A stretch of 64,000 nucleotides of DNA from Thermoanaerobaculia bacterium (GTDB taxonomy: Bacteria; Acidobacteriota; Thermoanaerobaculia; Multivoradales; JBJKRB01), in the NCBI GenBank assembly GCA_046704885.1, contig JBJKRB010000207.1, forward strand, positions 11,819 through 75,818, written 5' to 3'. The position numbers were made by a program. Shown here piece by piece: positions 27,001 through 29,463 of this stretch (position 1 is its first letter; every line of letters begins with the position of its first letter).

Positions 27001-29463
27001 ACGAACTCCACCACTCGACCGCAAGAGACACAGACCAGATGGTCGTGATCCTGCCCGCTGTGCACGTGTTCAAAGAGAAAGTGATTGCGGCCCAGCCGCT
27101 GCTTGGTGACCAGGCCCGCCTCGACCAGGAGATCGAGGTTGCGATAGACGGTGGCGCGAGAGATCTCGACTCCGGCCGCCAAGAGCGCGGCGAGAAGCTC
27201 TTCCGCGTCGATGTGGCCATGCTGCGAGAAGATCTCCTCGAACAACGCCAGTCGTTCGGTCGTGACCCGATGACCATTTTCCTTGAGGTAGCTCAGAAAT
27301 TGGGTTCGTTCTCGATCCAGCGCCATCTTCCCATCCTTATTGAGACGATGTCTCAATAAACGAGGGCTATTCTGGACCAATCCGGTCCCCTTTGTCAAGG
27401 AGACTAACGACGAAAGCGCGGCCTTGACGCTCCTCCTCTCTATGCTAGTCTTCCCTCTGCCGTTGGGCGGAACCGTGGAAGTTTCGCCAACCGACCAAGA
27501 TCAACTACCCGGACCCTCATCGAACCGAACCCTCGCTTCGTCCGCTGAAGCTCACGATTCACCCCCACCCAAACTTCCCTCTCCCTTTCGAGGAGCGCTG
27601 CTCGTACCATGAATGAAAAACTGCGTCGGCCGATGACCGACTTTCAAATCGCTTCCGAGCAGTTCGACATCGCCGCGGAAACCATGGGTCTTGACGAGGA
27701 GTCTCGCGCCCTGCTCAAGACGCCGTTTCGCGAGCTTCGCGTCGACGTGCCGATTCGCCTCGACGACGGCACCGGCGCCATCTTCATCGGTTATCGGGTA
27801 CAGCACAACGGCGCCCGCGGTCCGTACAAGGGCGGCATTCGCTACCACCCCGAGGTCGATCTCTACGAGGTCCGTGGCCTGGCCGCGTTGATGACTTGGA
27901 AGACGGCGTTGCTCGACATCCCGTTCGGCGGCGCCAAGGGAGGGGTGGCTTGCGTTCCTTGGGAGATGAGCGAGGCGGAGCTCGAGCGCCTGACCCGCAA
28001 ATTCATCTCGCGCATCTCCATCATTCTCGGCACCAACCGCGACGTCCCCGCTCCGGACATGTTCACCAACGCTCAGACCATGGCCTGGATCATGGACGAG
28101 TACGGGCGCAAATATGGCTACAACCCGGCCTGCGTCACCGGCAAGCCACTCGAGATCGGTGGCTCACAGGGACGTGAGGCGGCCACGGGTCGCGGCACGA
28201 TCATGATTCTCGAGCACGTCGCCCGACACTGGGAGGTCGAGGTCAGCGAAGCGACCTGCGCGATCCAGGGATTCGGCAACGTGGGCTCCTTCGCCGCGCG
28301 CTTCTTCCACGAACGCGGCGGCAAGGTTGTCGCCGTCTCGGACATCAATGGCGGGCTCCACGACCCGGCCGGGCTCGACATCCCCGCCCTGATCGAGCAC
28401 GTCGCCGAGCACCGAACCGTGGTCGGATTTCCCCAGGGCGAGCCGGTGTCGAACCGCGACCTCCTTACCCTGCCGTGCGATTTCCTCATTCCCGCTGCTC
28501 TCGGTGGCGTCATCAACCGCAACAACGCCGAAGCGATCAAGGCCCGATTCGTCATCGAAGCCGCCAACGCCCCGACCACTCCGCAGGCGGATCACAAGCT
28601 CTTCGAGCGTGGAGTCATCGTGGCGCCCGACATTCTCGTCAACGCGGGTGGTGTCACGGTCTCCTACTTCGAGTGGGTACAAAACCTGCAACAGTTCTTC
28701 TGGGACGAGGAGCAGGTCAACCGCGAGCTCGCCAAGCGCCTCGAGCGCGCCTGGGATTCGGTGATCGGCGTCTACGAGGAGAAGAAGGTCGACTTGAGAC
28801 GGGCGGCGTACATGATCGCCATCGACCGCGTCGCGCGCGCCGAGCGCTTGCGCGGCTTCGAGTAGGCCGAGAGCCGGCAACCCCGGGACCCATGGCCAAG
28901 CCTCCGGCGCGCCAACGTCGTCAAGCAAAGGCTCTGGCGCGCCTGCCCTTCGGTATTCGCGTCACCCTTCTCGTCGTCGGCTGGGTCCTGATCGCGATCG
29001 GCATCGCCGGGCTCGTCCTCCCCGGCATTCAGGGCATCCTCACCTTGCTCCTCGGCGCTGCGGTGCTGTCGCTCGTCTCGCAACGCGTCCACAACGGATT
29101 GCGGCGGCTCTTCAGCCGCTGGCCCAAGGGCTGGCGTCGCCTCGAGAAGCTGCGCCGCAAGCTCCACCGCAAGCTGTCTCCCAAGGACGACTAAAGGCCA
29201 GCCGGACTTGTAGATACGCGATGCGGGCCAACCCGGAGGCGGCCCGCTCGCAAGACTCCTGGTCGACGCGATGAAGCTCAGCCGCGCTTTTCGATGGGAA
29301 CGAAGTGACGCTCGTTCTCGCCGACATAGATCTGCCGCGGCCGGTTGATGCGCATCTTCGGATCCTCGCGCATCTCTTTCCACTGCGCGATCCAGCCGGG
29401 GAGCCGTCCGAGAGCGAACATGACCGTGAACATCTGGGTAGGAATACCCATCGCCCGGTAGAT

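What the first reader, a model, noticed from the sequence alone, without database searches (positions are those of the whole stretch)
27338..27360. Perfect AT-rich 23-bp palindrome immediately upstream of the Fur-family gene: candidate Fur box and autoregulation
TTATTGAGAC-GAT-GTCTCAATAA has 10/10 complementary arms and is 70% AT in a ~65-70% GC genome. It ends 12 bp before the regulator start codon and just 5' of the RBS. The size and dyad symmetry fit Fur-family operators. Its position suggests the regulator represses its own operon and thereby the downstream transporter genes.
Basis: seen in the sequence. Interest (0 to 1): 0.6.

Follow-up and report, generated by a model that had tools for sequence, protein, structure and literature searches.

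The report
Fur box upstream of acidobacterial fur operon
The palindrome is very probably the DNA site where the iron-sensing repressor Fur binds to switch off its own gene and the iron-uptake genes behind it; this is an ordinary kind of control, seen here in a poorly studied soil phylum.

Summary
The palindrome is real: TTATTGAGAC-GAT-GTCTCAATAA with 10/10 arms, at 27337..27359, one base left of the stated coordinates. It lies on the promoter side of a minus-strand Fur-family gene (27326..26829). That gene heads a five-gene operon: fur, an FTR1/FtrD iron permease, two FtsX/MacB permeases and an ABC ATPase.

In 50 of 58 orthologous Acidobacteriota (mostly Thermoanaerobaculia) loci, the core TTGAGA-N5-TCTCAA occurs once per 10 kb. 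It always sits upstream of fur, usually 12 nt after a conserved promoter (TTGACA-18-CAGAAT). This holds whether fur is followed by FTR1, FeoAB, TonB-dependent receptors or other genes.

The core has the same sequence and register as the EMSA-supported Caulobacter Fur box (Fur-alpha box). A matrix built from published Caulobacter sites ranks this palindrome first in the 64-kb window. Variable mirrored positions show no covariation, so it is a protein-binding dyad, not a hairpin.

A metagenome scan found the same motif beside Fur-family genes in 17 of 120 loci. All 17 proteins have Arg or Lys at the start of the recognition helix, where classical Furs have Leu.

This is a new member of a known kind. 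Binding, metal response and the wider regulon remain untested. A second conserved dyad inside the promoter spacer is unexplained.

The parts
27337..27359 (.). 23-bp perfect palindrome TTATTGAGAC-GAT-GTCTCAATAA, the predicted Fur operator. The 19-bp 9-1-9 box is 27339-27357 (ATTGAGACGATGTCTCAAT). The conserved core TTGAGA-N5-TCTCAA is 27340-27356.
   Evidence: sequence and arms. (conserved in 50 of 58 orthologous loci, once per locus). (top hit of the Caulobacter Fur matrix, 18.5 bits). (no covariation, so a sequence-conserved dyad).
27393..27398 (-). Predicted -35 hexamer TTGACA of the fur operon promoter.
   Evidence: consensus scan: 10 of 12 matches, spacer 18. (TTGACx present in 51 of 51 aligned upstream regions; spacer 18 in 50 of 51).
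27369..27374 (-). Predicted -10 hexamer CAGAAT. The inferred transcription start is near 27362, which puts the palindrome at about +4 to +26.
   Evidence: (GTCCAGAAT conserved in 44 orthologous promoters). (12 nt from the end of the -10 to TTGAGA in 35 of 51; range 10-14). The start site is inferred, not mapped.
27374..27388 (.). Second conserved dyad GGACC-N5-GGTCC, inside the promoter spacer and overlapping the -10 by one base. Function unknown; possibly the site of a second regulator.
   Evidence: GGAC-N7-GTCC at this position in about 42 orthologous promoters. (a relaxed form in 49 of 51). Absent from Fur promoters of other phyla.
27334..27338 (-). Shine-Dalgarno-like AAGGA, 7 nt before the ATG. 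It overlaps the last two bases of the palindrome.
   Evidence: Read from the sequence. Not conserved in position across orthologues, where the box-to-ATG distance varies from 0 to 104 nt.
26829..27326 (-). fur: Fur-family metalloregulator, 165 aa, first gene of the operon.
   Evidence: PF01475, E=1.8e-30. (best NCBIfam match is Fur, 87.6 bits, below the 146-bit cut-off). (start codon, invariant His/Glu metal ligands and two CxxC pairs). (comparison with solved structures).
25562..26836 (-). FTR1-family iron permease fused to an FtrD-like membrane iron-sulfur domain. Its ATG overlaps the fur stop (ATGCTTGA).
   Evidence: PF03239 E=4e-33; PF10080 E=1e-27. (EfeU/Ftr1). (found directly after fur in about 30 orthologous loci).
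24345..25562 (-). FtsX/MacB-type ABC permease (first of two).
   Evidence: PF02687, PF12704. (syntenic).
23233..24348 (-). FtsX-type ABC permease (second of two).
   Evidence: PF02687. (syntenic, more divergent).
22157..23362 (-). ABC transporter ATP-binding protein, last gene of the operon. The true start is probably downstream of 23362.
   Evidence: MacB/LolD-type ATPase; the match begins near residue 50-60. (syntenic, 64-69% identity).

Best explanation
The palindrome is the operator (Fur box) of the fur-ftr operon.

Proposed mechanism:
- When Fe(II) is sufficient, dimers of the Fur protein encoded immediately downstream bind the dyad ATTGAGAC-N3-GTCTCAAT.
- The dyad lies about 12 nt after the -10 hexamer, over the predicted transcription start (about +4 to +26).
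- Bound Fur there keeps RNA polymerase from binding or escaping.
- This represses fur itself and the co-transcribed FTR1/FtrD permease and MacB-type ABC transporter genes.
- When iron falls, apo-Fur leaves and the operon is transcribed. Uptake capacity and repressor rise together (negative autoregulation).

Shown here: the sequence; its conservation and fixed placement relative to the promoter; the Fur-family identity of the gene; the iron-uptake cargo; and identity of core and register with an experimentally supported Fur box class.

Inferred: the transcription start, binding by this particular protein, the metal sensed, and the sign of regulation.
For: - Perfect 10/10 palindrome at 27337-27359. 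An AT-rich palindrome of this kind is expected 0.0017 times per window.
- The core TTGAGA-N5-TCTCAA (at most 1 mismatch) occurs exactly once in each of 50 of 58 orthologous Acidobacteriota loci. It is always 0-104 nt upstream of fur and nowhere else in ~580 kb. A matrix from these sites finds no other site of 9 bits or more.
- The box is tied to the promoter, not to the start codon. TTGACx is present in 51 of 51, the spacer is 18 in 50 of 51, and the -10-to-box distance is 12 nt in 35 of 51.
- The box follows fur whatever comes next: FTR1/FtrD-ABC, FeoA-FeoB, TonB-dependent receptors, a cytochrome c-FTR1 fusion, or ApbE.
- Published Caulobacter Fur sites include ATTGAGAACCATTCTCAAA and TTTGAGAATGGTTCTCAAT (PMC2724300). 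These have the same TTGAGA-N5-TCTCAA core in the same 9-1-9 register. The matrix behind that table was built from 11 gel-shift-validated sites.
- A matrix I built from the 27 listed sites scores the window palindrome 18.5 bits. That is the top hit of 64 kb; the training sites range 10.8-29.0 and the next hit is 12.7 bits inside a gene. The same matrix picks the fur-upstream site as the top hit in 50 of 58 loci.
- Mirrored variable positions pair no more often than independent columns would (0.35 observed vs 0.41 expected; 0.37 vs 0.37).
- The exact motif TTGAGAC-N3-GTCTCAA lies next to a Fur-family gene in 17 of 120 metagenome loci from varied G+C contents. It usually sits 3-12 nt after a TTGACA-17-TAnnnT promoter. 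Divergent or downstream partners include FeoB, FeoA and a ferritin-like gene.
- Arg or Lys at the start of the recognition helix (S-R-A-T-V-Y-R) is found in all 17 of these proteins and in 54 acidobacterial orthologues. E. coli Fur and 19 proteobacterial Furs have Leu there. The Janthinobacterium fur genes (10 of the loci whose upstream DNA was scanned) carry a classical box (AATGGTAATGATTATCATT, 16-17 of 18) upstream.
- The protein keeps the regulatory-site ligands (H38, E86, H94, H96, E107) and the Cys4 site (C99, C102, C139, C142).
Against: - No binding, footprint, expression or transcription-start data exist for this organism. The promoter is a consensus match only.
- The motif was not found at any second location in the window or in ~580 kb of orthologous neighbourhoods. 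A regulon beyond the fur-headed operon has therefore not been demonstrated in this lineage.
- By sequence alone the protein is as close to B. subtilis PerR (82.5 bits) as to E. coli Fur (80.7 bits). It also fails the NCBIfam Fur equivalog cut-off (87.6 vs 146).
- One residue of the accessory metal site is not conserved: V114 where E. coli Fur has E108.
- Seven orthologous loci with enough upstream sequence lack the box.
- A second conserved dyad in the same promoter shows that another factor may also act there.
- Many metagenome hits lie next to genes with no evident link to iron.
Confidence: 0.8

Rival explanations
1. The dyad is a Fur-family operator, but the regulator senses something other than iron (peroxide as PerR, zinc as Zur, manganese as Mur). 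Alternatively, the site is bound by a paralogous Fur-family protein encoded elsewhere rather than by the adjacent gene's product.
For: The closest solved structure by sequence is B. subtilis PerR (82.5 bits), about equal to E. coli Fur (80.7). The NCBIfam Fur equivalog cut-off is not met. In the metagenome set, the same exact motif also sits between a Fur-family gene and a ZnuA gene, a Zur-like context, in L082. In B. subtilis, PerR represses fur (established knowledge, not tested here).
Against: The two positions that are Asp in PerR (D85, D104) are Glu here (E86, E107), as in Fur (alignment; invariant). The genes co-transcribed with fur in this and related genomes are iron importers: FTR1/FtrD, FeoAB, TonB-dependent receptors. 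They are not catalase/AhpC, ZnuABC or MntH/SitABCD. The recognition-helix Arg co-occurs with the box next to the gene in 17 diverse lineages, which is most simply explained by self-recognition.
Confidence: 0.1
2. The palindrome is the operator of an unrelated transcription factor (for example a TetR-, MarR- or Rrf2-type protein) that controls fur, and Fur itself does not bind it.
For: No binding data exist. The promoter also carries a second conserved dyad, GGACC-N5-GGTCC, so at least one site here has no assigned factor. The box was never found away from fur in the acidobacterial data.
Against: Core and register are identical to published Caulobacter Fur sites, and the palindrome is the top hit of a matrix built from them. 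It shares the TGA-N9-TCA frame and 10 of 18 positions with the classical Fur box AATGATAATnATTATCATT (consensus quoted in PMC1698941; comparison made here by reading the sequence). It is repeatedly adjacent to Fur-family genes across phyla: 17 of 120 loci, where about 0.1% would be expected by chance. No other regulator gene is conserved next to the promoter; the divergent neighbours vary (GDH, small membrane proteins).
Confidence: 0.06
3. The inverted repeat works as an RNA hairpin in the 5' untranslated region. It would control translation or mRNA stability, for example by occluding the AAGGA ribosome-binding site that it overlaps.
For: If transcription starts near 27362, the repeat is transcribed. 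The 5' region is predicted to fold with the repeat as a 10-bp stem (minimum free energy -17.7 kcal/mol), and the stem overlaps the first bases of AAGGA.
Against: The fold is not unusual for its composition: z = -1.28, and 24 of 200 shuffles fold as well. Across 51 sites the six core positions of each half are conserved as specific bases, although the sites were selected on that core. The variable mirrored positions, which were not selected, pair only as often as independent columns, with no compensatory changes. The distance to the start codon varies from 0 to 104 nt, whereas the distance to the -10 is nearly fixed.
Confidence: 0.03
4. The palindrome is a chance occurrence in an AT-richer intergenic stretch and has no function.
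For: Perfect 10-nt-arm inverted repeats as a class are not rare in the window: 4 observed, and 24 of 60 simulations had at least one.
Against: An AT-rich one is expected 0.0017 times per window. The core is conserved in 50 of 58 orthologous promoters at 55-80% protein identity and is absent elsewhere.
Confidence: 0.01

Closest known systems
Fur-alpha box / Caulobacter crescentus Fur box (Rodionov et al. 2006, PMC1698941; da Silva Neto et al. 2009, PMC2724300)
   Same: 19-bp 9-1-9 palindrome with the core TTG(A/C)GA-N5-TC(T/G)CAA and outer A/T. Published sites such as ATTGAGAACCATTCTCAAA match the window site ATTGAGACGATGTCTCAAT at all 14 outer positions. The window site scores inside the range of the published sites. 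A possible low-score site upstream of the Caulobacter fur gene was also reported.
   Different: Positions 8 and 12 of the 19-mer are mostly C/G in the acidobacterial sites (GAGAC...GTCTC), against A/T in Caulobacter (GAGAA...TTCTC). Position 5 is almost always A here, but mostly C in Caulobacter (TTGCGA). The phylum is different, and no experimental data exist for the acidobacterial protein.
Classical Fur box (E. coli GATAATGATAATCATTATC; 19-bp form AATGATAATnATTATCATT; 7-1-7 form TGATAATnATTATCA)
   Same: Same length and 9-1-9 register. Shared T3-G4-A5, A7, T13 and T15-C16-A17 (10 of 18 specified positions). Same placement at a promoter of iron-uptake genes and of fur itself.
   Different: G instead of T at position 6 (C instead of A at position 14), and G/C-rich inner positions. 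The best match to the E. coli consensus in the fur-GDH intergenic region is only 10 of 19. The recognition helix begins S-R-A-T-V-Y-R instead of G-L-A-T-V-Y-R.
Irr iron control element (ICE), TTTAGAA-N3-TTCTAAA (quoted in PMC1698941)
   Same: 7-3-7 dyad of a Fur-family protein. Five of 7 bases per half-site are shared with TTGAGAC-N3-GTCTCAA.
   Different: The protein here keeps the full His/Glu regulatory site and the Cys4 zinc site. That Irr proteins lack these is established knowledge, not tested here. NCBIfam Irr models score far lower than the Fur model.
Campylobacter jejuni cFtr1-P19 / cj1658-cj1663 type iron uptake cluster and Bordetella/Brucella FtrABCD (from memory, not tested here)
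   Same: An FTR1 permease together with an FtrD-like/DUF2318 domain protein and, in Campylobacter, two FtsX-type permeases and an ABC ATPase. Reported there to be under Fur control.
   Different: Here FTR1 and the FtrD-like domain are fused in one protein. No P19/FtrA gene was seen in the operon, and fur is the first gene of the operon.

Membership tests
Fur box (operator of a Fur-family repressor) | Dyad-symmetric site of about 19 bp (9-1-9, or overlapping 7-1-7) with the TGA-N9-TCA frame. | tested here: met
   ATTGAGACG-A-TGTCTCAAT at 27339-27357, with perfect 10-nt arms in the 23-bp form. Ten of 18 positions match the classical 19-mer in the same register (read from the sequence; consensus quoted).
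Fur box (operator of a Fur-family repressor) | Overlaps or abuts the promoter of the regulated gene. | tested here: met
   Starts 10 nt after the predicted -10 hexamer. The distance from the -10 to the TTGAGA core is conserved across 51 promoters. The promoter is a prediction; no mapped transcription start exists.
Fur box (operator of a Fur-family repressor) | Bound by the Fur protein in a metal-dependent way. | not testable with these tools
   Needs EMSA or footprinting with purified protein.
Fur box (operator of a Fur-family repressor) | Recurs upstream of several iron-homeostasis genes of the same genome (a regulon). | tested here: inconclusive
   No second site in the 64-kb window or in 58 ten-kb neighbourhoods. 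However, the same box heads fur-feoAB, fur-TonB-receptor and fur-FTR1 operons in relatives. It also lies next to FeoA/FeoB and ferritin-like genes in metagenome loci. No whole genome could be scanned.
Fur-alpha box (Caulobacter-type Fur box) | Scores as a site with a matrix built from the published Caulobacter Fur sites. | tested here: met
   18.5 bits, rank 1 of about 64,000 positions. Training sites score 10.8-29.0.
Fur sensu stricto (iron-sensing Fur protein) | Fur-family fold and domain (PF01475). | tested here: met
   E=1.8e-30, covering profile positions 1-120 of 121.
Fur sensu stricto (iron-sensing Fur protein) | Regulatory metal site His/Glu/His/His/Glu, with Glu rather than the Asp found in PerR. 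| tested here: met
   H38, E86, H94, H96 and E107 align to E. coli Fur H33, E81, H88, H90 and E101. They are invariant in 20 homologues.
Fur sensu stricto (iron-sensing Fur protein) | Reaches the curated equivalog score for Fur (NCBIfam NF006999, cut-off 146 bits). | tested here: not met
   87.6 bits. It is the best of all Fur-family models, but the protein cannot be called an equivalog of proteobacterial Fur by that model. I therefore file it as a Fur-family regulator inferred to sense iron.
Fur sensu stricto (iron-sensing Fur protein) | Genomic link to iron acquisition genes. | tested here: met
   Same operon as the FTR1/FtrD permease. Orthologues are followed by FeoAB, TonB-dependent receptors or cytochrome c-FTR1.
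Fur sensu stricto (iron-sensing Fur protein) | Fe(II)-dependent DNA binding. | not testable with these tools
   Biochemistry is required.
PerR | Asp at the two regulatory-site positions equivalent to B. subtilis PerR D85 and D104. | tested here: not met
   Glu at both positions (E86, E107) in the phmmer alignment to 2fe3. Overall similarity to PerR is nevertheless as high as to Fur.
Intrinsic terminator or structured 5' UTR hairpin | Pairing maintained by compensatory changes; for a terminator, a following T-run. | tested here: not met
   No covariation. Folding z-score is -1.28. No T-run on either strand, and the terminator scan does not report it.

The most novel reading that the evidence does not exclude
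The fur promoter of Thermoanaerobaculia may be a two-input switch. Besides the Fur box it carries a second, equally conserved dyad (GGACC-N5-GGTCC, 27374-27388) inside an unusually invariant 18-nt spacer, overlapping the -10. No known factor can be assigned to it, and it could be the operator of an undescribed co-regulator of iron uptake.

In parallel, the G-containing box TTGAGAC-N3-GTCTCAA, together with an Arg at the first position of the Fur recognition helix, may define a widespread specificity class of Fur proteins. This class is not yet formally described and spans several phyla. A single Leu-to-Arg change would retune the operator from TGATAAT to TGAGAC.
Probability: 0.3. Interest if true: 0.45.

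Novelty: new member of a known kind. Interest (0 to 1): 0.3.

Why it matters
Acidobacteriota are abundant in soils and sediments but are rarely cultured, and no Fur box has been defined for them in the literature I could search.

This site and its 50 orthologues give a ready-made matrix (consensus ctATTGAGAC-N3-GTCTCAATAa) for predicting iron regulons in Thermoanaerobaculia genomes and metagenomes. They also show that fur is commonly the first gene of the ferrous-iron uptake operon it controls.

The Arg/Leu correlation with G/T at box position 6 is a testable specificity rule for Fur-family proteins. None of this changes how Fur regulation is understood; it extends a known mechanism to a new lineage.

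Tried and rejected
- Half-site search in the window (TTATTGAGAC with 1 mismatch; core with up to 2 mismatches): only the two arms themselves were found.
- Acidobacterial matrix scan of the window plus 58 loci (~640 kb): one weak extra hit (10.9 bits, L052) and nothing usable for a regulon.
- Second-best Caulobacter-matrix hit in the window (38304, 12.7 bits): it lies inside an ORF (37306-38445) and only one half-site is good. Treated as chance.
- E. coli Fur consensus: best match in the intergenic region is 10 of 19, so the classical box is not present as such.
- A second GGACC-N5-GGTCC at 26841-26855, at the fur/FTR1 junction: not conserved in orthologues, so treated as chance.
- Small divergent ORFs upstream of fur in FeoAB-type loci, checked as possible partner regulators for the second dyad: no DNA-binding domain, only weak DUF454/PGPGW membrane-protein hits.
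- Literature searches for an acidobacterial Fur box: nothing relevant.
- Pfam typing of 40 genes next to metagenome hits: many have no family or no iron link (DUF1559 proteins, porins, histidine kinases, GyrB). These are partly chance matches expected for a 14-base pattern.
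Full report
**1. The observation**

The window reads ...CATCC TTATTGAGAC GAT GTCTCAATAA ACGAGG.... The repeat finder gives arms at 27337-27346 and 27350-27359, each 10 nt, 100% complementary, with a 3-nt spacer. The stated coordinates are therefore one base too high.

The element has 7 G+C in 23 bases, in a window of 64.6% G+C. As a class, perfect 10-nt-arm inverted repeats are not rare: the window has four, and 24 of 60 first-order Markov simulations had at least one. An AT-rich one is expected only 0.0017 times per window. The half-site occurs nowhere else in the window, even with one mismatch.

**2. The surroundings**

The regulator is on the minus strand (27326..26829, 165 aa). 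It matches PF01475 (FUR) at E=1.8e-30. Its ATG is confirmed by an alignment of 20 homologues.

The stop codon of this gene overlaps the ATG of an FTR1-family permease fused to an FtrD-like iron-sulfur domain (26836..25562). Two FtsX/MacB-type permeases and an ABC ATPase follow, ending at 22157.

On the other side, a glutamate dehydrogenase gene is transcribed divergently from 27609.

A sigma-70-like promoter is predicted on the minus strand: TTGACA (27398..27393), an 18-nt spacer, then CAGAAT (27374..27369). The palindrome begins 10 nt after the -10 hexamer. With a start site near 27362 (inferred), it covers about +4 to +26. An AAGGA ribosome-binding site overlaps its last two bases.

**3. Related sequences**

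The protein has hundreds of close homologues, and the named ones come from Acidobacteriota and Thermoanaerobaculia MAGs. A scan of species-representative genomes returned 58 acidobacterial loci at 53-75% identity, plus proteobacterial Fur loci at 32-44%.

In 50 of the 58 loci, the core TTGAGA-N5-TCTCAA (at most 1 mismatch) is present. It occurs exactly once per 10-kb locus, always 0-104 nt upstream of the fur start, and never elsewhere. It is absent from the proteobacterial loci. One further locus has only 37 nt of upstream sequence, and seven lack the box.

I anchored 51 upstream regions on the core. This shows an almost invariant promoter: TTGACx in 51 of 51, spacer 18 in 50 of 51, and GTCCAGAAT as the -10 region. 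The distance from the -10 to the core is 12 nt in 35 of 51 (range 10-14). The element is therefore positioned relative to the promoter, not relative to the start codon.

**4. What follows fur**

About 30 loci have the window's arrangement of fur, FTR1/FtrD, two FtsX permeases and an ABC ATPase. In the others, fur with the same promoter and box is followed by FeoA-FeoB, TonB-dependent receptors, a cytochrome c-FTR1 fusion, or ApbE.

The box therefore belongs to fur, and the cargo is iron acquisition in nearly all typed cases. This is the main argument that the regulator senses iron.

**5. Identity of the motif**

A text search for the two half-sites led to the Caulobacter crescentus Fur study (PMC2724300). 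Its Table 3 lists Fur sites such as ATTGAGAACCATTCTCAAA, TTTGAGAATGGTTCTCAAT and ATTGCGAACGTTTCTCAAT. These have the same TTG(A/C)GA-N5-TCTCAA core in a 19-bp 9-1-9 palindrome. The matrix behind that table was built from 11 gel-shift-validated sites.

This is the Fur-alpha box of Rodionov et al. (PMC1698941). Those authors relate it to the classical AATGATAATnATTATCATT box.

I built a symmetrised matrix from the 27 listed Caulobacter sites. It scores the window site ATTGAGACGATGTCTCAAT at 18.5 bits. The training sites range from 10.8 to 29.0 bits, this is the best position in the window, and the next hit is 12.7 bits inside a gene. The same matrix ranks the fur-upstream site first in 50 of the 58 loci.

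In the same register the site shares 10 of 18 positions with the classical box. The best match to the E. coli consensus in the intergenic region is only 10 of 19.

**6. Protein site or hairpin**

Across the 51 sites the six core positions of each half are fixed as particular bases. This is partly by construction, because the sites were selected on the core. The mirrored variable positions are unbiased, and they are complementary only as often as independent columns would be: 0.35 observed vs 0.41 expected, 0.37 vs 0.37, and 0.27 vs 0.25. There are no compensatory pairs.

The RNA fold of the 5' region is not exceptional (z = -1.28). The distance to the ATG is variable. No T-run follows the repeat.

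The element behaves as a binding site for a symmetric dimer.

**7. Wider distribution**

A Fur profile built from the acidobacterial alignment found a Fur-family gene directly beside the site in 17 loci. In 16 of them the site is upstream of that gene's start.

FUR was the most frequent Pfam family among 91 flanking ORFs (12 members). Genes sharing these sites include FeoB (L109), FeoA (L132), a ferritin-like gene (L157), ZnuA (L082), a DsbA-like thioredoxin (L171) and an Fe-S biosynthesis protein (L151).

In these unrelated lineages (G+C from 31% to 71%), the box again sits 3-12 nt after a TTGACA-17-TAnnnT promoter.

Forty-two of the 125 sites extend the symmetry to TTGAGACT-N-AGTCTCAA, where 7.8 would be expected. 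Many other hits lie next to genes with no iron link or inside ORFs. Some of that is expected, because a 14-base pattern also gives chance matches.

**8. A possible specificity determinant**

All 17 Fur-family proteins next to the motif, and 54 acidobacterial orthologues, have Arg (once Lys) at the first position of the recognition helix (I-S-R-A-T-V-Y-R). E. coli Fur and 19 proteobacterial Furs from the same scan have Leu (G-L-A-T-V/I-Y-R). The Janthinobacterium fur genes among these carry a near-perfect classical box (AATGGTAATGATTATCATT) upstream.

That the extra Arg reads the extra G (TGAGAC instead of TGATAAT) is my inference and is not shown. The sequences are phylogenetically clustered, and I could not check the Caulobacter protein.

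**9. Which metal**

By sequence the protein is as close to B. subtilis PerR (82.5 bits) as to E. coli Fur (80.7 bits). It does not reach the NCBIfam Fur equivalog cut-off, although Fur is its best model.

The regulatory-site ligands align to those of Fur. Both positions that are Asp in PerR are Glu here (E86, E107), and both are invariant in the family. The Cys4 zinc site is complete. One ligand of the accessory site is not conserved (V114).

Together with the iron-transport cargo, this favours an iron-sensing Fur. The metal remains an inference.

**10. Mechanism proposed**

Holo-Fur binds the dyad over the transcription start and blocks RNA polymerase. This represses fur and the FTR1/FtrD-ABC genes. 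Iron limitation releases it.

Placing fur first in the operon makes the loop negatively autoregulated, so the repressor and the transporter are derepressed together.

Shown: the sequence, its conservation and placement, the protein family, the cargo, and identity with a supported Fur box class. Inferred: the start site, binding by this protein, the metal sensed, and the sign of regulation.

**11. What remains open**

First, no site was found outside the fur promoter in the window or in about 640 kb of related DNA. The regulon in this lineage is therefore untested.

Second, a second dyad, GGACC-N5-GGTCC (27374-27388), lies inside the spacer and overlaps the -10. It is conserved in about 42-49 of 51 promoters, shows no compensatory changes, and is absent from Fur promoters of other phyla. 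I could not assign it to any regulator.

**12. Verdict**

The element is an ordinary kind of feature: a Fur box autoregulating a fur-headed iron-uptake operon. It belongs to the G-containing (Fur-alpha-like) variant and sits in a phylum where it had not been described in the literature I could search.

I rate it as a new member of a known kind, of modest interest.

Noticed in passing
window 27374-27388 (and the same place in L001-L058): A second conserved dyad, GGACC-N5-GGTCC, lies inside the 18-nt promoter spacer and overlaps the -10 (CAGAAT) by one base. It is present in about 42-49 of 51 orthologous fur promoters but not in Fur promoters of other phyla. No factor could be assigned.
   Followed up: partly
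window 26829-26836: The fur stop codon and the FTR1/FtrD start codon overlap (ATGCTTGA). The conserved C-terminal A-H-A/V of the Fur homologues appears to reflect this overlapping start, which suggests translational coupling is widespread.
   Followed up: partly
window 22157-26836: The operon cargo is an FTR1 permease fused to an FtrD-like (PF10080) domain, two FtsX/MacB permeases and an ABC ATPase. No P19/FtrA-type periplasmic protein was seen. It resembles the Campylobacter cj1658-cj1663 cluster (from memory) but with the first two functions fused.
   Followed up: partly
L081-L200 (metagenome loci): Among exact TTGAGAC-N3-GTCTCAA matches, 42 of 125 extend to the 8-1-8 palindrome TTGAGACT-N-AGTCTCAA (7.8 expected). 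Several lie upstream of DUF1559/N-methyl (planctomycete-type) genes and genes of unknown function, which suggests a widespread operator class beyond Acidobacteriota.
   Followed up: partly
L039, L042, L045, L047, L048, L050, L051, L055, L058: In fur-feoAB type loci, the Fur box ends 0-1 nt before the apparent fur start codon, leaving no room for a Shine-Dalgarno sequence. Either the start is mis-assigned or translation initiation is unusual there.
   Followed up: no
window 26841-26855: A second exact GGACC-N5-GGTCC lies in the 3' end of fur, just before the FTR1 start. It is not conserved in orthologous loci and is probably chance (about 0.2 expected per window by my own rough estimate).
   Followed up: yes
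window 27450-27600: The region upstream of the glutamate dehydrogenase gene is strongly C-over-G skewed (GC skew down to -0.49). It contains an imperfect 16-nt tandem repeat (27501-27516 and 27517-27532, 75% identical). GDH is also divergent from fur in L025, L033 and L035.
   Followed up: no
window 35009-35029, 43957-43981, 51141-51164: Three other perfect 10-nt-arm GC-rich inverted repeats are present. The ones at 43957 and 51141 lie just after predicted gene ends (43926 and 51107) and look like terminator stems. The one at 35009 lies inside an ORF.
   Followed up: no
L018, L024, L036, L037, L044, L052, L053: Seven acidobacterial Fur orthologues (53-72% identity) lack both the box and an iron transporter downstream. 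They may be paralogues or differently regulated copies.
   Followed up: no
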